A stretch of DNA of 64,000 bases from an uncultured Erysipelotrichaceae bacterium (GTDB lineage Bacteria; Bacillota_I; Bacilli_A; RF39; UBA660), in the NCBI GenBank assembly GCA_902773675.1, contig CACYFN010000002.1:1453-65452 (forward strand). Reading direction: 5' to 3'. The notes beneath the pieces are model-generated. The model was not told the DNA's origin and made no database searches. It saw only the letters and a program-made list of their open reading frames with translations. The position numbers and the translations under genes are program-made. Shown in pieces: positions 1,546 through 54,262 of this stretch. Numbering within the stretch: position 1 is the first letter of the stretch; each line of letters opens with the position of its first letter.

Positions 1546-1735
1546 AAAGTATTATAAAATAAGGGACGAAATATCCGTGGTACCACCCTTTTTCATAATA
1601 CTATTATGCACTTAAATTTACTATAAAGCGTAACCTGATTGTTCAAAAGACGAATTCATAAAATACTATCATTCACTTGCACCAACCGTGAACTCTCTTT
1701 GGATAGTTTAGATTACTACTACTTCTTCATCAACA
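1546..1735 (-). promoter_or_regulatory. T-box riboswitch leader, Phe specifier UUC, with terminator/antiterminator
   Basis: The minus strand reads AGAGAG, then AGUGA, then AAUUCG with a UUC specifier. It also carries AAGGGUGGUACCACGG, which matches the T-box consensus AGGGUGGUACCGCGG. A stem and U-run follow just before the pheS SD. Confidence 0.6.
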
Positions 1736-1781
1736 CAATTAAACAAGTTTATAATATCATAATTTTTTATTTTAAACAATA

Positions 1782-16062: not shown

Positions 16063-16496
16063 TGAGTCATCCCTTTCTTTATCTTTTTTATTAATTCTTT
16101 TATGAGTGTGGTTTTTCCTGTTTTAAATCTAATTTTTAAGATATTATTATTTATAAGTAATTCTTTTTCTAATTTGCAATCTACTAATAATTCATAGTAC
16201 GTATCTAATTTGTTTATTTTTATTATTTTATAATCATACTTATTATCTTCTATGTATAGTTTATAATTTTTTTTAATTGGAAATAAAGATTTATCAATTA
16301 TTATTTTTAGATTATAATCTTCTTTTATTTCGACGTATCCAATGGTATTTGTATATTTATTTATTTTAAATAGTATGCTTATTAAAATAAATACAAGAGA
16401 TAAAATACATAGTATGGTAATCCAAGAGATTATTTTTGATGGTTTTTCATTTATTAGTTTCATTTTGGAATAGTTAAAGGCATTAAGATTTTCCAT
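16059..16496 (-). CDS. single-TM accessory protein of the bacteriocin exporter
   Basis: 145 aa counted from MENLNAF, which has the SD AGGAGTG. One TM segment is followed by an extracellular beta-rich region. It is coupled both to the exporter stop and to peptide 2. Confidence 0.45.
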   Translation of the reverse strand: MENLNAFNYSKMKLINEKPSKIISWITILCILSLVFILISILFKINKYTNTIGYVEIKEDYNLKIIIDKSLFPIKKNYKLYIEDNKYDYKIIKINKLDTYYELLVDCKLEKELLINNNILKIRFKTGKTTLIKELIKKIKKGMTQ

Positions 16497-18567
16497 TTTT
16501 ATATTCACTCCTAATAATGCTTCCATCATTTATTTCAATTAGATTATCAAATAGGTCAATATTATCTAGTCTATGGGTTATAAATATTATAGTTTTAGTT
16601 TTATAATATTTAATTATATTTTTTAATATTTTTCTTTCTAAATTGATATCTATTTGATTTGTACCTTCATCTATTATTAGAATATTAAATTTTCTAAGAA
16701 GGGTTCTAGCTAATATTATTCTTTGTTTTTCTCCTCCCGAGATATTATAGCCATTTTCTTCTATCATCATATTGTATCCTAAATTACTTTTATTAATAAT
16801 TTCGTCTATAAAACAATTTTTACACACTTCTAGAAAGAATAAATTATCACTATTTTCAATATTAATATTATTAAATATACTATCTGTAAAAAGGGTTTCA
16901 TTTTGACTTAAATATAAGATATTATTTAATGATTTATCTTTATAATTATTTATATCTACTCCATCTATAAATATTTTATTCATATCTACATCATAATACC
17001 TCATAAGTAGTTTAAATAGAGTTGATTTACCAGAACCACTTTTACCAATAATAACTGTTTTGGTACCACTTTTTATTTTTAAGTTTATATTTTTTAAGAC
17101 ATTATATCTATTATCAAAGGTATATGTTAAGCTTTTAAATTCAATATCTCCTTTAATATTTTTATCAAGTATTCCTTTATCTTTATTAATGCTTATTAGT
17201 TCTAAAACTCTTTTTAATGCATTTTTGGCTTCATTTATATTGTTATCTAATTCGATAATATTTTTTATCGGCTCTAAGAAAAAACTAAGTAATGCATTAA
17301 ATGTTATTAGGCTTCCTAATGATAAGGAATTATCTATTACTTTTAATGTTCCTATAAATATAATTATGACAAATCCAATATTATTTATTAATTCTTTAAT
17401 GAAATGGATTATAAAATATGTACTTTGATAATTAAATACTTCTTTTAGGAGGTGAATGTATTTTTTTTCAAAGTTATCGTTTACTTTGTTTTCGATGTGT
17501 AATCCTTTTATGGTTTCGTATGCTTGTAAGCTTTCTACCATATAGGTACTTACATTACTTTTAGCTATTTGAACTTTATTAATTATGAATTTATATTTAT
17601 TTTTAAAGATTATAATAGTTAATACATGCATGAAAATAATTATTATACTTATTATGGTTAATGTAGAACAAATTTTATACATAAATATTAGTACAAGCAA
17701 AGTGAGTGGAAAATCAATAAAAACAGCTAAAAATAGTTTACTAATGATATCTCTTATACTTGATAGGTCATTAAATCTTGATATAACTTCTCCTGTGGTA
17801 CGATTTTTGAAATAGTGATAAGGGAGTTTAATAATTTTATGATAATTATCCACTATTAAGTTTAGATCAATTTTTTGATTGATGTAAATTAGTATTTTAT
17901 TTCTAAAATAATCTGTTATTGTTTTAAGCACATATATAGAAAAGAAAAATATAAATATTAGATATGTATTATTATGAGAATGATTATTTATTTCATCAAT
18001 CATATATTGTATATAAAAGGAATTTATTATAGAAAAGATAGTAATAAATATTGATAACATTAGTAATTGTTTTAATAAGATGTGGTGGTTTTTTATTATT
18101 TCAAATATGAATGAATAAATATTTACACTATTTTCTATAGGAAGTGGTTTTATAGGAGTTAAAAATATTAATATTTTATTAAATACTAATTTGAAGTAAT
18201 CAAATGATACTTTTTTTAGTTTGTCGGCAGGATCACCAATTATTAAATATTTATTTTTATAGTTTATTTCATAAATAACTATAAAGTGCAGATAAGAATT
18301 ATCTATAGTTATATTGGCGATACAAGGGAACAATACATTCTCATTATTTATATCATCAAATTCACATTTAACTCCTCTAGCATCAAATCCTATTTGTTTG
18401 GCAGCATTTATCAGATTATAAGCATTTGTACCCTCTTTATTTGTTTTAGTTATTTGTCTTAACTGTTCGAGATTTAGAAATCCATGGTAATACTTGATAA
18501 TCATCTGTAATGATGCTGCTCCACAATCTTTTATTCCTTCTTGTTTAATGAATGGATATTTTTTCAA
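16483..18567 (-). CDS. bacteriocin-processing ABC transporter with a peptidase C39 domain, TM domain and ATPase
   Basis: The N-terminus IKQEGIKDCGAASLQMIIKYYHG carries the C39 catalytic Cys. The C-terminus has Walker A (GKSGSGKST) and the ABC signature LSGGEKQR. The start is TTG behind the SD GAGGGGG. Confidence 0.85.
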   Translation of the reverse strand: MKKYPFIKQEGIKDCGAASLQMIIKYYHGFLNLEQLRQITKTNKEGTNAYNLINAAKQIGFDARGVKCEFDDINNENVLFPCIANITIDNSYLHFIVIYEINYKNKYLIIGDPADKLKKVSFDYFKLVFNKILIFLTPIKPLPIENSVNIYSFIFEIIKNHHILLKQLLMLSIFITIFSIINSFYIQYMIDEINNHSHNNTYLIFIFFFSIYVLKTITDYFRNKILIYINQKIDLNLIVDNYHKIIKLPYHYFKNRTTGEVISRFNDLSSIRDIISKLFLAVFIDFPLTLLVLIFMYKICSTLTIISIIIIFMHVLTIIIFKNKYKFIINKVQIAKSNVSTYMVESLQAYETIKGLHIENKVNDNFEKKYIHLLKEVFNYQSTYFIIHFIKELINNIGFVIIIFIGTLKVIDNSLSLGSLITFNALLSFFLEPIKNIIELDNNINEAKNALKRVLELISINKDKGILDKNIKGDIEFKSLTYTFDNRYNVLKNINLKIKSGTKTVIIGKSGSGKSTLFKLLMRYYDVDMNKIFIDGVDINNYKDKSLNNILYLSQNETLFTDSIFNNINIENSDNLFFLEVCKNCFIDEIINKSNLGYNMMIEENGYNISGGEKQRIILARTLLRKFNILIIDEGTNQIDINLERKILKNIIKYYKTKTIIFITHRLDNIDLFDNLIEINDGSIIRSEYKNGKS

Positions 18568-20911: not shown

Positions 20912-20988
20912 GTCTCAGTAGCTCAGCTGGATAGAGCATCGCCCTTCTAAGGCGAGTGTCAGGGGTTCGAATCCCTTCTGGGACACCA
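20912..20988 (+). tRNA. tRNA-Arg, anticodon TCT
   Basis: Cloverleaf with acceptor stem GTCTCAG/CTGGGAC, anticodon loop CTTCTAA and encoded CCA. Confidence 0.85.
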
Positions 20989-21000
20989 TTTAGAATATTT

Positions 21001-21030
21001 TAGAGAACTTGCAAAAAGTTCTTTTTTATG
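21001..21030 (+). terminator. rho-independent terminator after tRNA-Arg
   Basis: Stem agaactt/aagttct followed by tttttat. Confidence 0.6.
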
Positions 21031-21054
21031 TTATTATGTATTTAGCAAGAGTTC

Positions 21055-21170
21055 TTGCATATAATAAAAAAGGGAACATTCAGTTTTCCGAGTTGAATGC
21101 CTACCCATATTAATTGTTGAGACATTTAATTCAGCATTGAATTAAGTGTCATTTTTTTATTACTACTATC
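21055..21170 (+). ncRNA. candidate cis-antisense RNA convergent with the small-peptide mRNA
   Basis: A TATAAT box at 21060-21065 and a terminator (ttaattca/tgaattaa plus T-run) at 21132-21165. The block aaaaaagggaacattc is shared with the antisense region of the second cassette. Confidence 0.3.
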
Positions 21171-21241
21171 ATGATAATAAGAAGGAATAAAATGATAGTA
21201 ATGTATCTTAGAACTTTGATTACAAAGTTTCTTTTTTTCAT
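21149..21241 (-). CDS. 30-aa hydrophobic peptide, type I toxin-like
   Basis: MKKRNFVIKVLRYITIILFLLIIMIVVIKK with the SD GGAGG. It is a paralog of the peptide at 30756-30857. Confidence 0.45.
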   Translation of the reverse strand: MKKRNFVIKVLRYITIILFLLIIMIVVIKK

Positions 21242-21339
21242 TATTATCAAACCTCCTCTCTATTTGAGATTTGGTAGACACTTAACTACTAAATGTTCCT
21301 ATATATATTATACTATTTATGAAAGATAAATTCGATCTT

Positions 21340-22132: not shown

Positions 22133-23686
22133 TTATTTAGCTTCTTCTACAGCTCTTGTTTCTCTAATTACGGTAACTTTTATTGTTCCAGGATATTGTA
22201 ATTTTTCTTCAATTTTATTTTTTATATCATATGCTACTTTATGAGATGTTGCATCATCTATTTCTTCTGGTTTTACTAGTACACGTAATTCTCTACCTGC
22301 TTGCATTGCGAATGATTTTTCTACACCTTCTATTTCATTAGCTATATCTTCTAGATCTCTTAATCTTTGAACATAGTTTTCAAGTGAATCATTTCTAGCA
22401 CCTGGACGGGTTGCGGACAATGTATCTGCTATAGCTACTAAACTAGATATTACACTTGTTGCTTCACAATCTCCATGATGAGATTCTATAGCATTTATAA
22501 CCACTTCATTTTCATTATATTTTTTAGCGATATTTGAACCTATTTCAACATGGCTACCTTCTATTTCATGGTCTATTGATTTTCCAATATCATGTAATAA
22601 TCCGGCTCTTTTAGCTAGCATTACATTTTCTCCAAGTTCTGATGCCATTATTCCTGTTAGGTTGGCTACTTCTATTGAATGCATTAAACCATTTTGACCA
22701 TAACTTGTTCTAAATTTTAGTTTACCAATAAGTTCTACTAATTCTGGATCAACTTTTGTTATTCCTAACTCAAATAATGCTTCTTCTCCGTATTCTAGTA
22801 TTTTTGCTCGCATTTCTTTTGCTGTTTTATCATATACTTCTTCAATTCTAGCTGGATGAATTCTTCCATCTTTAATTAAAGTTTCTACTGTTAATCTGGC
22901 TATTTCTCTTCTTAGTGGATCAAATGATGATAAAACTATTGCTTCTGGGGTATCATCTATTATTAGATCAACACCTGTTACTGCTTCTATGGTACGAATA
23001 TTTCTTCCTTCTCTACCAATAATTCTACCTTTCATATCATCATTATCTAGATTAACTACTGTTATTGTTTGTTCTTCGACAACGTCACTCGCATATTTTT
23101 GCATACTTTCAATTAACATTGATTTTGCTTTTTTATCTACGACCAATTTAGCTTCTTCTTCTTTTTCTTTTATTAATGAAGCTATTTCTTTACTCATTGT
23201 CTCTTCTATTTTTTTAAGAACAATTTCTCTTGCTTTTTCTTTAGAATATCCTGAAATTTTTTCAAGCATTTCTAACTGACTATTTTTTATCTCCTCTATT
23301 TTTGCTTTTTCATTTTGAATATCATTTTGTTTATCGATTAAATTTTGTTCTTTTTCATCTATTAGCATTTCTCTATTTTGTAAGTTTTCGTTTCTTTTAT
23401 CTAAAGTTTCTTCACGGAAAATTAATCTTTTTTCCATTTCTTTGGCTTCAGATTTTTTTTCTTTTAATTCTTCTTCTACTTTTTCTTTTATTTCATTTGC
23501 TTCTTTTTTTGCTTCGCTAATAGTATCTTTTTTTATTTTTTCTGCTTCTGTTTTAGCTTTAGAAATAATATTTTCTGCGCTATCTGTTGCTTTATTTTTA
23601 CGAATATTGTTAATTATAAACATTACGATTATTCCGACTATAAGTCCAATAAAAATTAGCAAAATGGAGAATACTGTATCATTCAT
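22133..23686 (-). CDS. rny: ribonuclease Y
   Basis: N-terminal TM segment, a KH domain and an HD domain (LLHDIGK). Confidence 0.9.
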
Positions 23687-29273: not shown

Positions 29274-30371
29274 CTAACAACCACTTCCATAATATATACC
29301 ATTTCCATACGAGAAGCACTGAGTATTTTCACTGCTATAAATATATATATCACCATTTTGATTTAAACTAACATTAATTTCTGATTCGTCAGTACAATCA
29401 ATACTATATTCTTCGTCTCCAGTACACTGATTATCCCAATCAAAAAAATGTTTTACAATATCAATATTTTTAGAAATCAATAAATTATCAGAATCTCCTT
29501 CTAAACAAAAATATCTATTGTTCATAGCACCACACAAAAAAACTCTTGTAACTATATTATTATCTGTTATAACTCCAGCAAAAGCATCACCCAAAGAAGA
29601 ATAATCATTTGTATAATCATTAGATTCGTCTAATTCTTCATTTAATAATTGAAAACCAGTAAAAAAAATACAATTTGGACACATACTTTCCATTGAATAT
29701 GGATCTACTGGTTTTACTTCTGCTATTTCTACATTAGTATTCCATGCTGTTGCATACTTATTATATTGTACTGTTTCTATTGTTAGTGTTAATGTATATG
29801 TAGCATTATCATAATCATCGCCACTAGAGTTACATGTTGTAGTTGTTACTCCATTGTTAGTTGTTGTTGTACATGTATCATCTAATTTAGTTTTTGGATT
29901 AAATGTTACTGATTCTAATAATGAACTAGTTGATTCTGTTGGTGCTAATTTATAATTATAATAGTAATAATTACCTACTTTAGTCCAATCTGATGTATTA
30001 GCTAAATTAAGTATTGCTACCCTTTCATCTGTTTCTAACTCACTTTGTGTAGTATGAGTTGATTTAGTACCATCTGCATGAATCCATCCATTTAATGTAC
30101 CATTATTATTTGTAGTCCAAGATTCAGTAACTAGTACTCTTACAGCTTGGTCTACTTCCCCTGTATTAGTGGCTACTAATGTTTTTTCTGTTGTATCTCC
30201 TGGTAGCCAATTATCAGGTGATACAAAGGTTTCTTCGTATGTAGTACCATATTCTTTAGTTGTAAATGTATTATCTAAACTGGTTGAGTTTGCAAAATAA
30301 GCTATTGTTAGACCTACTATACCTATTATAGCTATTAATAAAAGTGCAATTATACTTTTCTTATTATTCAT
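29274..30371 (-). CDS. TasA/CalY (camelysin, peptidase M73)-like secreted protein with a Cys-rich C-terminal domain
   Basis: The signal peptide ends ...GLTIAYFANSTSLDNTFTT, which resembles the SipW-cognate signal of TasA (GGTWAAFND...ATFASGTLDL). The C-terminal 150 aa carry about 12 Cys. Confidence 0.5.
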   Translation of the reverse strand: MNNKKSIIALLLIAIIGIVGLTIAYFANSTSLDNTFTTKEYGTTYEETFVSPDNWLPGDTTEKTLVATNTGEVDQAVRVLVTESWTTNNNGTLNGWIHADGTKSTHTTQSELETDERVAILNLANTSDWTKVGNYYYYNYKLAPTESTSSLLESVTFNPKTKLDDTCTTTTNNGVTTTTCNSSGDDYDNATYTLTLTIETVQYNKYATAWNTNVEIAEVKPVDPYSMESMCPNCIFFTGFQLLNEELDESNDYTNDYSSLGDAFAGVITDNNIVTRVFLCGAMNNRYFCLEGDSDNLLISKNIDIVKHFFDWDNQCTGDEEYSIDCTDESEINVSLNQNGDIYIYSSENTQCFSYGNGIYYGSGC

Positions 30372-30654: not shown

Positions 30655-30683
30655 TTGACATTATTTTTTAGTAATAATATAAT
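30655..30683 (+). promoter_or_regulatory. consensus sigma-A promoter
   Basis: TTGACA, a 17-nt spacer, then TATAAT. Confidence 0.6.
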
Positions 30684-30755
30684 GCTTTTTGAAACATTTT
30701 AATGTGAGTGTCTTACCTTTTTATTATATTAAATTATATAGAAAGGACTGATATT

Positions 30756-30857
30756 ATGAGTAAAAGATATTTTATAATAAAATTACTACATTCTATCATT
30801 ATCATTTTATTGCTACTTATTCTACTTATTATAGTAATAAAAAAAGACACTCTGTAA
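30756..30857 (+). CDS. 33-aa hydrophobic peptide, type I toxin-like
   Basis: MSKRYFIIKLLHSIIIILLLLILLIIVIKKDTL with the SD AAAGGA. It is a paralog of the 21149-21241 peptide. Confidence 0.45.
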   Translation: MSKRYFIIKLLHSIIIILLLLILLIIVIKKDTL

Positions 30858-30945
30858 TTTGAGTGTCACCACCTAAATTATAAAGGTAAGACATTCTATT
30901 ACGCATTAGAATGTTTCCTTTTTTGTGCAAGAATGAACTTGCTAA
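30838..30945 (-). ncRNA. candidate cis-antisense RNA overlapping the 3' end of the small-peptide mRNA
   Basis: Minus-strand consensus promoter TTGACA-17-TATTAT (plus coordinates 30974-30946). A minus-strand terminator gacactcaaattacagagtgtc plus U-run lies at 30867-30838. Confidence 0.4.
30891..30926 (+). terminator. rho-independent terminator of the small-peptide mRNA
   Basis: Stem acattcta/tagaatgt followed by ttccttttttg. Confidence 0.55.
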
Positions 30946-30984
30946 AATAATAATATCACTACTATTTGTATATGTCAATAGTTT

Positions 30985-32190
30985 TTATCTTTTAAATTTT
31001 CCTTTTGCACCTTTTACGCCATTATAATTTGATAATATATTGGTATCAAAGGAATATGTTTTCTTTTGTTTATTTTTATATTCTTTGATAGCTATATTAA
31101 TCATATCATCTAGTAATTGTTCATAACTTTTACCAATTGGTTCCCATAGATAGAAAGCTAAACTTCCTGGAATTGTGTTTGGTTCGTTTACATATACTTT
31201 GTTTTTCTTTTTATCTATTAGATAATCTATTCTACAAAGTCCACTTAGATTTAGTGCTTTAAATACTTGTTTACTTAAGTCTTTTATTTCGTTTTCAGTT
31301 TTTTCACTAATTCTAGCTGGTATTACTCTGCTTGCACTTGCCATACCTTTAGATCCTAATGATTTAATTCCGCCTTTTGTTTTACCTTTTGAGTTACCAA
31401 TATATTTATCTTGGTATGTAAGAAGATTATGTTCACTTGTTACTTCTTCTAAGGCACTTGTTTCTTGATGCATGTAATTACCTAGAACACTACAGTTCAC
31501 TTCTGTTAGATCTTCTACTGCTTTTTCTACAACTATTTTTTTATCATATTTTATTGCTTCTTCAATAGCATTTGTAATGTTTAGTTCATCTTTTACAAAT
31601 GTTATTCCTACACTACTTCCAAGGGTAGCTGGTTTTACTACTACTGGATATCCTAATTTTTTTATTTTATTTAATATTGTATCTCTACTTTCATTATATT
31701 CTATATCATAAAACCAAGTATATTCTACTACAGGTATATTCATGCTTTCAAATACTTGTTTCATTACTACTTTATCTTGACCTAGTGCACTACCAAGTAC
31801 TTTACTTCCTACATATGGTATACCTATTGAATCTAAATATCCTTGTAATGATCCATCTTCGACATTGTTTCCATGTACTATTGGAAGAACTATATCAATA
31901 TCTGTTATATCGCTTCTAAATAGTCCAGTTACTTTTTGAAGATAAAATTTGTCTTTCTTTTTTACAAGTGTTACTTTTTTGGCATATTTTTTTAAATCAT
32001 CAAAATTTCTGAATACATCTATATCCATTAATAATTTTCCAGCATACCATGTTCTATCTTTACTAATATAGATAGGCATTATATCATATTTTTCTTGATT
32101 TATGTGTTCCATTGCTTGGAGAGCACTTATGATACTTACTTCGTGTTCGACACTCTCTCCTCCAAATATTACTCCTAATTTTATTTTCAT
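30985..32190 (-). CDS. ddl: D-alanine--D-alanine ligase with an extended loop and C-terminal tail
   Basis: MKIKLGVIFGGESVEHEVSIISA and an ATP-grasp fold. Confidence 0.85.
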   Translation of the reverse strand: MKIKLGVIFGGESVEHEVSIISALQAMEHINQEKYDIMPIYISKDRTWYAGKLLMDIDVFRNFDDLKKYAKKVTLVKKKDKFYLQKVTGLFRSDITDIDIVLPIVHGNNVEDGSLQGYLDSIGIPYVGSKVLGSALGQDKVVMKQVFESMNIPVVEYTWFYDIEYNESRDTILNKIKKLGYPVVVKPATLGSSVGITFVKDELNITNAIEEAIKYDKKIVVEKAVEDLTEVNCSVLGNYMHQETSALEEVTSEHNLLTYQDKYIGNSKGKTKGGIKSLGSKGMASASRVIPARISEKTENEIKDLSKQVFKALNLSGLCRIDYLIDKKKNKVYVNEPNTIPGSLAFYLWEPIGKSYEQLLDDMINIAIKEYKNKQKKTYSFDTNILSNYNGVKGAKGKFKR

Positions 32191-52342: not shown

Positions 52343-54241
52343 TTATTTCTTCTTCATTTTCTTAAATATTATTGCAGATAATATTACTTGAGCAAATATA
52401 AATAAATTTATTAATATTAATCCTATTAAAATATATTTAATTAATCCATCATCTAATCCATCTTCTCCATAGTCATTATAATAATTATTGATATTTCCAT
52501 TATTATCTATACTATTATTTTCTTTTTCTTCTTCAATTTCGTCTTTTGTTGTTTCTGGATTATTTGATTGCTCATTTGTAAGAGTCTTTTGTTTTTCATT
52601 GGATTCTTTTATTATATTATTGGTTGATTCTTCATCTAATTTTTCTACATTATCTAATTTTAATGTAATTACTGGTCTTATGCCAGCTGTAAATGATAAT
52701 TCTCCTACTCCATTATATCCTGATAGGAAAAAATTATTTCCATTATTTTGACCTGGTGCGATATAAAGAGATACCCAGTTCTTTTCTATTTCAGCATTAT
52801 CGAGATTATAGAACATTATTCCTACATTGAAATATCCATTACCATTATATGGTGATGATGTATCTTCTACAGATTTTTTATTAAATTGCCTTTTGGAATT
52901 AATCCAATATTTAGCATTTACTTTATCATTTATTTTATTTAGATTAGCTAAATCAGAATATACAACTGCTCTAGCATTTATTACTTTATCTCCATTTTTA
53001 TAATTATCTACTTCTTTTTGAAGAATATCTTCATAATTTTCATAATCATCTTTTCCTCTAAGGTAAAGATTTTTTACTATTCCACCACTAATTATATCTA
53101 CTGTATTATTTGCTTTATCTATTGATAATACACGCCAATTTTTATATTCTTGTGCACTATAATTTACATAGTCTCCTACACTTAAATCAGTATTTGCTTC
53201 TTTTTTGTTAGTTTCTTGTGGTGTTAGTTTAAGGGTAACTACTGGCCTAAATCCTTTTGTTACTGGTTGGTATTGACTATATGTTTCAGAATAGCAACAC
53301 TCTAAATAGTTTCTTTCTACTACATACTTTTCAATTTCATAGTATCTTGATTTATATCCTTCTCCAGAACTATCTCCAAACCATCCTCTTAATATTTTAT
53401 ATGGGTTACTTTTGGATGCATAATAATTTTTTATTTTAGTAATATAATTTATTCTATCATTTCCATATCTTTGAAGAACATGTCCAGTTTCCCAAACATT
53501 ACTGTCTGACTGACGATAATCATTAAAAATTGCATCAATATATCCATATGGATCATTTAACATTTGCTCATTACCTAATACATCTATTGCAATTGGGTCT
53601 TTAGGCATTAACCATAAAGAATCTCCCCATACTTCTATTATAAACCATTCACTAATACCACCAATATCTTTGGTATATATATCTCCTTGTTCATAACCAG
53701 ATGTGTTATCTAAATGATATTGTATATATGGTAAAAAATATAGATCATTTGAAAAATCAGATGGATCTACATATTCAATTTTTCCTGCTGAATATGCAAT
53801 ACTCTTATCATATTTGTCTGCTGTCCAAAATTCTTTACCAAATGCAAAATTCTCCAAATCAGAACGATTTACGCTTCTTGCTTTAATAGCATATTTCCCA
53901 TCAACATATTTATCTGCTTCAGTTTGAAATATATCTAATGCATTATCAAAATCATCTTTATCTGATATAGTTATTTCGGATACATTATCTTTACTTACAA
54001 CGTCTATTGTTCCATTTACTTTATCTATATAGATAACTTTCCAATCTGAATATCCATTTATTTCATATTTTATTGAATCACCAATTTTAATTTTTTTTAT
54101 ATTTGTATTTAAATCATTTATGTTGTAGACACTACCCATTAATCTATTAGGATTTACTGATATTCCAACTAATACAATTATTAATATAACCATAAAAATA
54201 CTTGTAATTAGTACTTTTATTGCATTACTTTTTTTATTCAT
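52343..54241 (-). CDS. large two-anchor surface protein with two tandem ~200-aa repeats
   Basis: Each repeat runs from ...GDSIKYEINGYSDWKVIYIDKVNGTIDVVSK... to ...GFRPVVTLKL. It is a paralog of the 54263 and 45159 proteins. Confidence 0.5.
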   Translation of the reverse strand: MNKKSNAIKVLITSIFMVILIIVLVGISVNPNRLMGSVYNINDLNTNIKKIKIGDSIKYEINGYSDWKVIYIDKVNGTIDVVSKDNVSEITISDKDDFDNALDIFQTEADKYVDGKYAIKARSVNRSDLENFAFGKEFWTADKYDKSIAYSAGKIEYVDPSDFSNDLYFLPYIQYHLDNTSGYEQGDIYTKDIGGISEWFIIEVWGDSLWLMPKDPIAIDVLGNEQMLNDPYGYIDAIFNDYRQSDSNVWETGHVLQRYGNDRINYITKIKNYYASKSNPYKILRGWFGDSSGEGYKSRYYEIEKYVVERNYLECCYSETYSQYQPVTKGFRPVVTLKLTPQETNKKEANTDLSVGDYVNYSAQEYKNWRVLSIDKANNTVDIISGGIVKNLYLRGKDDYENYEDILQKEVDNYKNGDKVINARAVVYSDLANLNKINDKVNAKYWINSKRQFNKKSVEDTSSPYNGNGYFNVGIMFYNLDNAEIEKNWVSLYIAPGQNNGNNFFLSGYNGVGELSFTAGIRPVITLKLDNVEKLDEESTNNIIKESNEKQKTLTNEQSNNPETTKDEIEEEKENNSIDNNGNINNYYNDYGEDGLDDGLIKYILIGLILINLFIFAQVILSAIIFKKMKKK

Positions 54242-54262
54242 TCTTAAACCTCCTTCTAATAA

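What the first reader, a model, noticed from the sequence alone, without database searches (positions are those of the whole stretch)
30655..30980. Type I toxin-antitoxin-like cassette 2, paralogous to cassette 1, with consensus promoters on both strands
A plus-strand TTGACA-17-TATAAT promoter, an SD and a 33-aa peptide MSKRYFIIKLLHSIIIILLLLILLIIVIKKDTL, which is clearly homologous to the 30-aa peptide. The 5'UTR gagtgtcttacctttttat is complementary to a segment beyond the stop codon (ataaaggtaagacattc), giving about 16 bp. A minus-strand TTGACA-17-TATTAT promoter at 30974-30946 and a minus-strand terminator at 30867-30838 define a roughly 100-nt antisense RNA across the toxin 3' end. The block AAAAAAGG(G/A)AACATTC is shared with the cassette 1 antisense region. 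The two cassettes sit about 9.5 kb apart in intergenic spaces.
Basis: seen in the sequence. Interest (0 to 1): 0.65.

Follow-up and report, generated by a model that had tools for sequence, protein, structure and literature searches.

The report
New type I toxin–antitoxin RNA cassette
This 330-base intergenic stretch most likely carries a small membrane "toxin" peptide gene and an opposing antisense RNA that keeps it silent; it belongs to a previously uncatalogued, multi-copy family found in uncultured gut Bacilli, but it is built like known Bacillus subtilis type I toxin–antitoxin systems, and neither transcription nor toxicity has been tested.

Summary
Window 30655-30978 has a perfect TTGACA-17-TATAAT promoter, an SD and a 33-codon hydrophobic ORF (30756-30857). 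A convergent extended -10 promoter (30978-30950) is predicted to drive a 106-nt antisense RNA (30943 to 30838) that would overlap the last 88 nt of the predicted toxin mRNA.

A pattern scan plus a covariance model found 59 copies in 36 species-level MAGs of uncultured gut Bacilli and 30 more in metagenomes. None was found in phage, plasmid or viral collections.

- **Coding signal:** synonymous changes make up 0.54-0.68 of single-base codon differences, against 0.24 expected.
- **mRNA structure:** a long helix joins the predicted first and last nucleotides of the toxin mRNA. 95% of cells are paired, 10 of 16 pairs show compensatory changes, and G·U outnumbers A·C 93 to 7.
- **Antisense RNA:** all 59 copies have a TGnTAnnAT promoter, and all 47 copies folded give three hairpins; the terminator stem covaries.
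- **Toxin loss:** about 14 copies lack a toxin ORF with a recognisable SD; about 12 of these are clear remnants, and IS110 cuts off this cassette's promoter in some strains.

No Pfam, NCBIfam, Rfam or PDB match exists. The layout matches bsrG/SR4 of B. subtilis. Verdict: a new member of a known kind. Toxicity and transcripts remain untested.

The parts
30655..30683 (+). Toxin promoter: TTGACA, 17-nt spacer, TATAAT. The predicted +1 is G30691, 7 nt after the -10.
   Evidence: 12/12 matches. Both hexamers are kept in the orthologs L011 and L012 although 7 of 29 bases differ, all in the spacer. Homologous cassettes have TGnTAnnAT-like -10 boxes 7 nt before the conserved GGAACA 5' end (partial run).
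30691..30924 (+). Predicted toxin mRNA, about 234 nt.
   Evidence: MFE -64.4 kcal/mol, z = -7.7, closed by a helix between the 5' and 3' ends. Cassette 1 folds the same way, z = -7.8.
30691..30717 (+). 5' arm of the long end-to-end helix (P1): GAAACATT...GAGTGTCTTACC. The adjacent CCTTTTTAT (30716-30724) is predicted to pair with the SD.
   Evidence: family covariation; G·U 93 versus A·C 7; SD mostly paired.
30742..30747 (+). Shine-Dalgarno AAAGGA, 8 nt upstream of the ATG.
   Evidence: Most homologs have GGAGG at the same place.
30756..30857 (+). Toxin ORF of 33 aa with a single transmembrane segment: MSKRYFIIKLLHSIIIILLLLILLIIVIKKDTL.
   Evidence: In the orthologs the ORF differs by 0.9-1.8% while the neighbouring ddl differs by 5.0-8.9%. 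In the family the synonymous fraction is 0.54-0.68 against 0.24 expected, and 0.05-0.31 in the other frames.
30846..30867 (-). Antisense RNA terminator hairpin (SL3), followed by a U run at 30845-30838. The U run is the complement of the toxin's Lys-Lys codons. On the + strand the same hairpin holds the stop codon in its loop.
   Evidence: The family SL3 has 11 pairs, 7 with compensatory changes.
30885..30924 (+). 3' arm of P1, which is also the toxin-strand terminator hairpin: GG..ACATTCTA / TAGAATGT..CC plus a U run at 30919-30924. The two folds are mutually exclusive.
30950..30978 (-). Antisense promoter: TTGACA, 17-nt spacer, TG-n-TATTAT. The predicted +1 is 30943.
   Evidence: All 59 family copies have TGnTAnnAT, 54 of them with a 17-nt spacer.
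30838..30943 (-). Predicted antitoxin antisense RNA of 106 nt with three hairpins. SL1 lies at 30942-30927, SL2 at about 30914-30891, and SL3 is the terminator. It overlaps the toxin mRNA by 30838-30924 (about 88 bp).
   Evidence: Covariance-model hit at 62.3 bits, E = 9e-10. Fold z = -4.7. Cognate duplex -143 kcal/mol.
21044..21158 (+). Cassette 1 antisense RNA (paralog). Its promoter TTGCAA, 17-nt spacer, TG-n-TATTAT lies at 21009-21037.
   Evidence: Covariance-model hit at 117.3 bits. Fold z = -4.8.
21066..21299 (-). Cassette 1 toxin mRNA. The ORF is 21241-21149 (30 aa, MKKRNFVIKVLRYITIILFLLIIMIVVIKK) and the -10 TATAAT lies at 21312-21307.

Best explanation
Cassette 2 is a chromosomal type I toxin-antitoxin locus of the convergent, 3'-overlapping class, and cassette 1 is a second copy.

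**Layout.** A sigma-A-type promoter is predicted to make a ~234-nt mRNA for a 33-aa single-transmembrane cationic peptide. The first ~27 nt of that mRNA pair with the last ~35 nt before the U run. This closes the molecule in a long helix (P1), and the SD sits in a local stem, so the full-length mRNA should be poorly translated. From the opposite strand an extended -10 promoter is predicted to make a 106-nt RNA with three hairpins. It is fully complementary to the last 88 nt of the toxin mRNA: the final codons, the 3'UTR, the 3' arm of P1 and the terminator.

**Inferred mechanism.** The antisense RNA binds through complementary hairpin loops and zips up an ~88-bp duplex. The duplex is probably cut by a double-strand-specific RNase (RNase III in B. 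subtilis). Binding also strips the 3' arm from P1, which frees a 5' anti-SD segment that further occludes the SD. If antisense supply falls, the peptide is made and inserts in the membrane.

**What is shown here.**
- the sequence elements;
- purifying selection on the ORF;
- covariation and strand-specific G·U pairs in P1 and in the antisense hairpins;
- conservation of both promoters;
- multi-copy and tandem distribution;
- copies that kept the antisense gene but lost the toxin.

**What is inferred only.** Transcription, toxicity, duplex formation, the RNase involved, and the biological role.
For: **Anatomy.**

**Paralogy.** Compensatory differences separate the two cassettes: GAAACATT/AATGTTTC versus GGAACATT/AATGTTCC, and GTGTCTTACC/GGTAAGAC versus GTGTCTACC/GGTAGGC.

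**Family size.** 59 copies in 36 MAG loci and 30 more in metagenome contigs.

**Coding selection.**
- 24 distinct A-type sequences all have exactly 30 codons.
- The synonymous fraction is 0.54 (A type) and 0.68 (B type), against 0.24 for random changes and 0.05-0.31 in the shifted frames.
- The cassette 2 ORF is 0.9-1.8% diverged where ddl is 5.0-8.9% and the 3'UTR linker 35-59%.

**Helix P1** (MAFFT alignment, columns outside the search pattern).
- 95.4% of cells are paired, 10 of 16 pairs have double changes, 0 of 500 shuffles reach this, and slid controls give 27-42%.
- G·U 93 versus A·C 7.

**Antisense RNA.**
- The same three-hairpin fold is predicted in all 47 copies folded.
- 96.7% of cells are paired, and SL3 has 7 of 11 pairs with double changes.
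- G·U 133 versus A·C 12 on the antisense strand.
- TGnTAnnAT is present in 59 of 59 copies.

**Toxin loss with antitoxin retention.** About 14 copies lack an SD-preceded ORF. About 12 of these are clear remnants; one has an ATG-to-ATT start and one has a replaced 5' region. IS110 removes the promoter and 5'UTR of this very cassette in four metagenome contigs.

**SD accessibility.** The SD is predicted mostly paired, and more so when the antisense target is blocked: mean unpaired probability 0.14 versus 0.07, Wilcoxon p = 5e-4, n = 37.

**Precedent.** bsrG mRNA has helix P1 between nt 1-35 and nt 232-262, and its SD sits in a short stem. SR4 binds the 3' end, extends the SD stem and triggers decay (PMC3834814; PMC8309996).
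Against: - There are no transcript data, no toxicity data and no RNase data.
- The peptide matches no toxin family in Pfam, NCBIfam or PDB, and the RNAs match no Rfam family. The TA label therefore rests on architecture and evolutionary behaviour alone.
- SL1 and part of SL2 are invariant partly because the genomes were retrieved with an exact pattern over those bases.
- The family sequences are related, so the shuffle controls are not probabilities.
- The antisense promoter lies directly after the ddl stop codon on the same strand, so part of the antisense signal could come from ddl read-through.
- The predicted change in SD occlusion is small and model-based.
- The locus is in core chromosome, not on a prophage or plasmid. 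A stabilisation role is therefore not obvious.
Confidence: 0.78

Rival explanations
1. A small, non-toxic membrane peptide gene (for example a regulator or accessory subunit of a membrane complex) whose expression is tuned by a cis-antisense RNA. The layout is the same, but there is no toxin-antitoxin relationship.
For: Toxicity is untested. The cassettes sit in core-genome intergenic spaces between housekeeping genes (GerM, tRNA-Arg, RNase Y, ThrRS, ddl, murF), and no copy is in viral, phage or plasmid collections. The ORF is strongly conserved, more than ddl, as expected for a useful protein.
Against: - The family is multi-copy, with tandem arrays of up to 4 per locus and at least 9 copies in one MAG.
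- The peptide diverged rapidly into types of 27, 30, 33 and 40 aa on one RNA scaffold.
- The peptide gene was lost repeatedly while the antisense gene was kept (about 12 copies).
- The mRNA has a double lock (closed ends and an occluded SD), as in characterised type I toxins.

These traits are typical of type I TA loci and unusual for housekeeping small proteins.
Confidence: 0.14
2. A MITE-like mobile element whose terminal inverted repeats create the apparent 5'/3' complementarity. The ORF and promoters would be incidental.
For: The element is multi-copy, often in tandem, and next to a tRNA or tmRNA gene in 5 loci. It has an imperfect inverted repeat of about 27 nt at the ends of the predicted mRNA. 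An IS110 element is found at this locus in some strains.
Against: - Conservation does not stop at the repeat arms. It continues about 35 nt upstream into a -10/-35 promoter and about 60 nt downstream into SL1 and the antisense promoter.
- The repeat tolerates G·U (93 cells) but not A·C (7 cells), a strand-specific RNA signature.
- The ORF shows a codon-position and synonymous-substitution pattern only in its own frame, and its length is fixed.
- Copies within a genome are diverged, not near-identical.
Confidence: 0.03
3. The minus-strand features are only the 3'UTR and terminator of the murF-ddl operon, with a chance promoter-like site. No separate antisense RNA gene exists.
For: ddl ends at 30985 on the minus strand. 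No terminator lies between it and the hairpin at 30867-30846, so ddl transcripts probably do end there.
Against: The same about 110-nt module, with TGnTAnnAT at a fixed distance, occurs in 59 copies in unrelated gene contexts. Cassette 1 is one of them, and there the upstream neighbour is a tRNA. The covariance model scores the window copy at E = 9e-10.
Confidence: 0.05

Closest known systems
bsrG/SR4 of Bacillus subtilis (SPbeta prophage)
   Same: - Convergent toxin and antisense genes that overlap at the toxin's 3' end.
- The toxin is a small hydrophobic peptide with a C-terminal Lys cluster.
- The mRNA is closed by a long helix P1 between the 5' end (nt 1-35) and the 3' region (nt 232-262), with stem-loops branching from it, the SD in a short stem and the stop codon in a hairpin.
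- The antitoxin RNA consists of modular stem-loops, and its terminator loop faces a toxin-mRNA loop.
- The published mechanism is duplex-triggered decay plus extended SD sequestration (PMC3834814; PMC8309996).
   Different: - No detectable sequence homology of peptide or RNA.
- The antisense RNA is 105-127 nt with three hairpins, against 183 nt with four.
- Here the 3' arm of P1 and the toxin terminator are the same nucleotides; in bsrG, P1 and terminator SL4 are separate.
- The location is core chromosome, multi-copy and in tandem, not a prophage.
- The peptide has an N-terminal Lys/Arg cluster.
txpA/RatA, bsrE/SR5 and yonT/SR6 of B. subtilis
   Same: Antisense RNAs of about 100-200 nt overlap the 3' end of a small membrane-toxin mRNA. 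Control by RNase III-dependent duplex cleavage is published (PMC3531473, PMC5848175; both seen as title/abstract). PMC6562991, listed by title, reviews these systems.
   Different: Those toxins are 30-59 aa and unrelated in sequence, and they sit on prophages or prophage remnants. No family-wide conserved antitoxin scaffold has been reported for them. Nothing here shows RNase III involvement.
par (Fst/RNA II) of pAD1 and the Fst/Ldr/SprA1/Lpt superfamily
   Same: A Gram-positive type I system with a peptide of about 30 aa, convergent transcripts, the SD sequestered by an intramolecular 5' structure, and interaction starting at terminator loops (PMC8309996).
   Different: The family motif APxxxGxxx (Pro11, Gly15) is absent from all peptide types here. 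In par the RNAs interact mainly through 5' direct repeats over the start codon; here the overlap is purely 3'. There is no Pfam or NCBIfam hit.
hok/sok (enterobacterial plasmids) and aapA1/IsoA1 (Helicobacter)
   Same: The full-length toxin mRNA is locked by pairing between its 5' and 3' ends and is translationally inert (my own knowledge of these systems, not tested here).
   Different: Those antisense RNAs target the 5' leader, and activation needs 3' trimming. They occur in Proteobacteria and have unrelated sequences.

Membership tests
Type I toxin-antitoxin system (the kind) | A small protein-coding gene with its own promoter and SD, encoding a hydrophobic, membrane-type peptide that is really translated. 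| tested here: met
   Promoter, SD and ORF are present. The peptide has one uninterrupted Ile/Leu/Val stretch flanked by Lys/Arg. A frame-specific excess of synonymous changes and a fixed ORF length hold across 24 and 9 distinct sequences, and the ORF is conserved in orthologs.
Type I toxin-antitoxin system (the kind) | An antisense RNA gene that overlaps, or is complementary to, the toxin mRNA. | tested here: met
   All by prediction only. An extended -10 promoter is present in 59 of 59 copies. The RNA has a covarying terminator and hairpins with G·U strand bias. The perfect overlap is 88 bp.
Type I toxin-antitoxin system (the kind) | The peptide is toxic when over-produced, and the RNA neutralises it. 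| not testable with these tools
   There is indirect support only: about 12 copies kept the antisense gene but lost or disabled the toxin, and IS110 truncates this cassette in four contigs.
bsrG/SR4 | Toxin homologous to BsrG and antitoxin homologous to SR4. | tested here: not met
   No Pfam or NCBIfam family at E <= 10 beyond chance transmembrane-segment hits. No Rfam family. No PDB relative.
bsrG/SR4 | mRNA closed by the 5'/3' helix P1, SD in a stem, and a 3'-overlapping multi-hairpin antisense RNA. | tested here: met
   compared with the published structure.
Fst/Ldr (par) superfamily | Conserved APxxxGxxx motif in the transmembrane helix (PMC8309996) and a match to the family HMM. | tested here: not met
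   The cassette 1 and 2 peptides and nearly all A-type peptides contain no Pro or Gly. Where Gly occurs in other copies (position 2 in several B-type peptides; inside the hydrophobic segment in L037 and L043) there is no Pro and no APxxxG motif. No HMM hit.
MITE / non-autonomous transposon | Conservation bounded by terminal inverted repeats; a DNA-level (strand-symmetric) repeat; no coding constraint. | tested here: not met
   Conservation extends beyond both arms. G·U 93 versus A·C 7. The coding signal is frame-specific. Target-site duplications and empty sites were not examined.

The most novel reading that the evidence does not exclude
One conserved antitoxin-RNA scaffold serves several diverged toxin peptides (27, 30, 33 and 40 aa) within a genome. 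Its invariant 5' half is the complement of the toxin terminator and the 3' arm of P1. Under this reading the paralogous antisense RNAs and the toxin-less 'orphan' antisense genes act in trans on each other's toxin mRNAs. The result would be a genome-wide buffering or anti-addiction network rather than isolated pairs. Non-cognate cassette 1/cassette 2 pairing is predicted at -48 kcal/mol against -30 +/- 4 for shuffled RNAs, with a 15-17-bp perfect stretch at the toxin's 3' end.
Probability: 0.25. Interest if true: 0.6.

Novelty: new member of a known kind. Interest (0 to 1): 0.45.

Why it matters
It adds a well-supported type I toxin-antitoxin family, with about 90 natural variants, in a lineage of uncultured, AT-rich gut and rumen Bacilli where none is catalogued. 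Neither gene callers nor Pfam or Rfam see it.

The natural variation amounts to a mutational map of an mRNA locked end to end and of its antisense partner. That makes the bsrG/SR4-type mechanism testable by comparative and synthetic approaches.

The orphan antisense genes and the strains truncated by IS110 offer natural "toxin-minus" controls.

It also gives a covariance model and a DNA pattern that can be used to annotate these loci in MAGs.

Tried and rejected
**Database searches that found nothing.**
- Pfam and NCBIfam scans of nine peptide variants gave only chance transmembrane-segment hits.
- PDB phmmer found nothing.
- Rfam at the gathering threshold and at E <= 10 gave only noise.
- An exact look-up of the peptides among 15 billion proteins found them absent, so they are not gene-called anywhere.
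- blastn against phage and plasmid records gave only chance flank hits or none.
- The IMG/VR pattern scan found none.
- A literature search for type I TA in Tenericutes, Erysipelotrichia or MAGs found nothing relevant in the held library.

**Analyses that failed or led nowhere.**
- RNAalifold on short MAFFT sub-blocks returned no structure, because loop indels misalign the stems. Per-sequence folds and the full-length alignments were used instead.
- A third weak DNA match at 54208-54258(-) turned out to be the SD and signal anchor of a larger ORF, not a cassette.
- The covariance model found no third copy in the window.
- Two pattern hits, in a Mucilaginibacter genome and in an archaeon (L020, L021), are chance matches. 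They have no plausible toxin ORF (L021 has only a non-hydrophobic 26-aa chance ORF) and no model hit.
- The toxin-promoter tabulation stopped on an error after 19 copies; only the printed rows are used.

**Readings rejected.** The MITE reading and the 'ddl 3'UTR only' reading were rejected (see rivals).

Full report
**1. The observation**

- **Toxin promoter:** a perfect TTGACA-17-TATAAT promoter on the + strand, 30655-30683.
- **SD and ORF:** AAAGGA at 30742-47 and a 33-codon ORF at 30756-30857 encoding MSKRYFIIKLLHSIIIILLLLILLIIVIKKDTL.
- **Antisense promoter:** a convergent TTGACA-17-TGnTATTAT promoter on the - strand, 30978-30950. This is 4 nt from the coordinates given.
- **Antisense terminator:** a - strand terminator at 30867-30846 with a T run to 30838.

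The 5'UTR/3'UTR complementarity is real and larger than reported. Besides GAGTGTCTTACC/GGTAAGACATTC there is an outer helix, GAAACATT (30691-98) with AATGTTTC (30910-17). This outer helix runs from the predicted +1 to the last bases before the U run.

The predicted 235-nt mRNA folds at -64.4 kcal/mol (z = -7.7) and is closed by this end-to-end helix. Cassette 1 (toxin on the - strand, 21299-21066) folds the same way, z = -7.8.

In the whole 64-kb window, 12/12 promoters number 3 against 0.27 expected. Convergent pairs of strong promoters occur only at this locus, against 0.08 expected.

**2. Paralogy**

The two cassettes align over coding and non-coding parts, and the peptides are 63% identical. 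Their end-to-end helices differ by compensatory changes: G-C versus A-U in the outer helix, and a matched one-base insertion on both sides of the inner helix.

**3. Orthologs**

The adjacent ddl gene led to metagenome contigs of the same and of related strains. In two diverged relatives, ddl differs by 5.0% and 8.9%. The toxin ORF differs by only 1.8% (two synonymous changes) and 0.9% (Tyr5Phe). Both promoters keep their hexamers, while the 3'UTR linker differs by 35-59%.

In four other contigs an IS110-family element and a rearrangement replace everything upstream of the SD. The ORF and the antisense gene are intact, but the toxin promoter and 5'UTR are gone.

**4. A family**

Gene callers never called the peptides, and protein searches were uninformative. 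I therefore scanned one genome per species with a DNA pattern taken from blocks shared by both cassettes: the toxin terminator 3' arm plus the antisense 5' hairpin.
- The scan returned 38 loci. 36 are real, nearly all labelled uncultured 'Bacilli bacterium' MAGs from human (Hadza, Nepal), rabbit, goat and deer gut.
- A covariance model of the antisense RNA then found 59 copies in these loci plus the window and the orthologs. Some diverged copies had been missed by the pattern.
- 30 more copies lie in 24 metagenome contigs.
- The window holds exactly two copies.
- Copies often lie in tandem, up to four per locus, and one MAG has at least nine.
- None occurs in IMG/VR viral contigs, phage records or plasmid records.
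- The window copies lie between housekeeping genes: GerM, tRNA-Arg and GNAT for cassette 1, and murF-ddl for cassette 2.

**5. The peptide is a real coding gene**

Upstream of about 45 of the 59 antisense genes lies an SD (mostly GGAGG) and an ATG, GTG or TTG ORF of 27-40 codons. The peptide types are:

| Type | Length | Example |
|---|---|---|
| A | 30 aa | MKKRNFVIKVLRYITIILFLLIIMIVVIKK |
| B | 27 aa | MSKKDFLISILLFIIILLIALLFIILK |
| C | 40 aa | C-terminal extension that runs through the hairpin |
| Cassette-2-like | 30-33 aa | MSKRYFIIKLLHSIIIILLLLILLIIVIKKDTL |

- All 24 distinct A-type sequences have exactly 30 codons.
- Among codons that differ by one base, 54% (A type) and 68% (B type) of the changes are synonymous. 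Random change would give 24%, and the two other frames give 5-31%.
- Differences rank third > first > second codon position.

**6. The toxin mRNA structure is selected**

This test used a MAFFT alignment of 40 full-length cassettes and only columns outside the search pattern.
- The long-range helix is 95.4% paired.
- 10 of 16 pairs show changes on both sides.
- No shuffle out of 500 reaches the observed values.
- Sliding the partner by 1-3 columns drops pairing to 27-42%.
- The helix holds 93 G·U cells against 7 A·C cells. That is the signature of an RNA helix on the toxin strand, not of a DNA inverted repeat.

The 3' arm of this helix is the same stretch as the toxin-strand terminator hairpin, so the two folds exclude each other.

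**7. The antisense RNA is selected too**

- All 47 copies retrieved by the pattern scan fold into the same three hairpins: SL1, SL2 and the terminator SL3.
- On a MAFFT alignment of 44 copies, 96.7% of cells are paired, and SL3 has 7 of 11 pairs with double changes.
- On the antisense strand the count is G·U 133 against A·C 12. These wobble pairs would be mismatches on the toxin strand.
- All 59 copies carry TGnTAnnAT 6-7 nt upstream of the conserved AGCAAG start, 54 of them with a 17-nt spacer to a -35-like hexamer.
- The invariance of SL1 and of part of SL2 is partly imposed by the search pattern. However, copies found only by the model show compensatory variants there.

**8. Behaviour expected of a toxin gene**

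About 14 copies lack a toxin ORF with a recognisable SD.
- About 12 of these keep the antisense gene but have only a 3' remnant of the toxin, a mutated start (ATT in L026, ATG in the near-identical L036), or a replaced 5' region (L019).
- Together with the IS110-truncated alleles of cassette 2, this is the asymmetric decay expected when the peptide is harmful and the RNA is protective.

This is indirect evidence only.

**9. Mechanism**

The layout reproduces the experimentally determined bsrG/SR4 system. In that system:
- helix P1 joins nt 1-35 with nt 232-262;
- the SD sits in a short stem, and the stop codon lies in a hairpin;
- the antisense RNA has a modular stem-loop structure and binds the 3' end;
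- binding extends the SD stem and triggers decay (PMC3834814; PMC8309996).

Constrained folding of 37 family members predicts an SD that is already mostly paired (mean unpaired probability 0.14). It becomes more occluded when the antisense target region is blocked (0.07; Wilcoxon p = 5e-4). This is suggestive, not proof.

The cognate duplexes are about 88-93 bp, at -143 and -152 kcal/mol. Non-cognate cassette 1/cassette 2 pairing is weaker but above background: -48 against -30 +/- 4 kcal/mol.

**10. Comparison and novelty**

No peptide type matches Pfam, NCBIfam or PDB, and no Rfam family matches either strand. The Fst/Ldr motif APxxxGxxx is absent. The locus therefore works like bsrG/SR4 and the other 3'-overlap systems of B. 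subtilis, but it is not a sequence member of any catalogued family.

I rate it a new member of a known kind. It is of moderate interest because the family is large, has strong structural support and sits in an uncultured lineage. It is not surprising in principle.

**11. Limits**

- No transcript, toxicity or RNase data exist.
- Family members are phylogenetically related, so cell counts and shuffles overstate independence.
- Retrieval by an exact pattern biases the set towards close relatives.
- Read-through from ddl may contribute to antisense transcription at cassette 2.

Noticed in passing
L003:2985-4310; also L006, L007, L009 (equivalent to window ~30744): In four metagenome contigs of the same species, an IS110-family transposase gene (PF01548/PF02371) sits directly upstream of the cassette 2 SD. 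Beyond it the neighbours are veg and yabG instead of the 365-aa gene. The toxin ORF is still 100% identical but has lost its promoter and 5'UTR.
   Followed up: partly
window 20912-20988 (+); L014:997-1072; L016:3854-3929; L048:3567-3642; L050:5589-5949: Five cassettes lie within about 50-250 bp of a tRNA or tmRNA gene: tRNA-Arg(TCT) next to cassette 1, tRNA-Thr, tRNA-His twice, and tmRNA. By a rough estimate this is about nine times more than chance.
   Followed up: partly
L015:4513-4838; L016:4100-4213; L028:134-246; L030:1641-1751; L031:4415-4522; L039:613-724; L023:4996-5100; L026:111-221 and 509-617; L037:6367-6490: These are orphan antisense genes with only a toxin remnant or a disabled toxin. 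L026 has an ATT start where the near-identical L036 has ATG. L019 has its toxin promoter and SD region replaced.
   Followed up: partly
window 30839-30857 versus 21149-21160: The three extra C-terminal residues of cassette 2 (DTL) arise from loss of the T of the TGA stop used in A-type copies (AAAAAAATGACAC becomes AAAAAAAGACACTCTGTAA). The toxin's Lys-Lys codons double as the U run of the antisense terminator.
   Followed up: yes
window 30985 (ddl stop) to 30838: No terminator lies between the ddl stop codon and the antisense gene on the same strand. The antisense terminator probably also ends murF-ddl transcripts, and ddl read-through could add to the antitoxin supply.
   Followed up: no
window 54208-54258 (-): This stretch has weak DNA similarity to the start of cassette 1. 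It is the SD plus the N-terminal signal anchor (MNKKSNAIKVLITSIFMVILIIVLVG...) of a larger ORF, not a third cassette.
   Followed up: yes
window 16483-18567 (-), 22133-23686 (-), 1559-1742 (-): Three other features in the window: a C39-peptidase ABC exporter of the bacteriocin-export type about 2.5 kb from cassette 1, RNase Y between the two cassettes, and a T-box leader.
   Followed up: no
L050 (CAZRJK010000002.1): A typical cassette and a tmRNA gene sit on a contig binned as 'Muribaculaceae'. All other real copies labelled below phylum level are in MAGs assigned to Bacilli or Mycoplasma, so the contig is probably mis-binned.
   Followed up: no
window 29274-30371 (-): This 365-aa protein has a SipW-type (camelysin/TasA-like) N-terminal signal, with a weak Peptidase_M73 hit. 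In one relative (L011) the gene downstream of the cassette encodes 542 aa instead.
   Followed up: no
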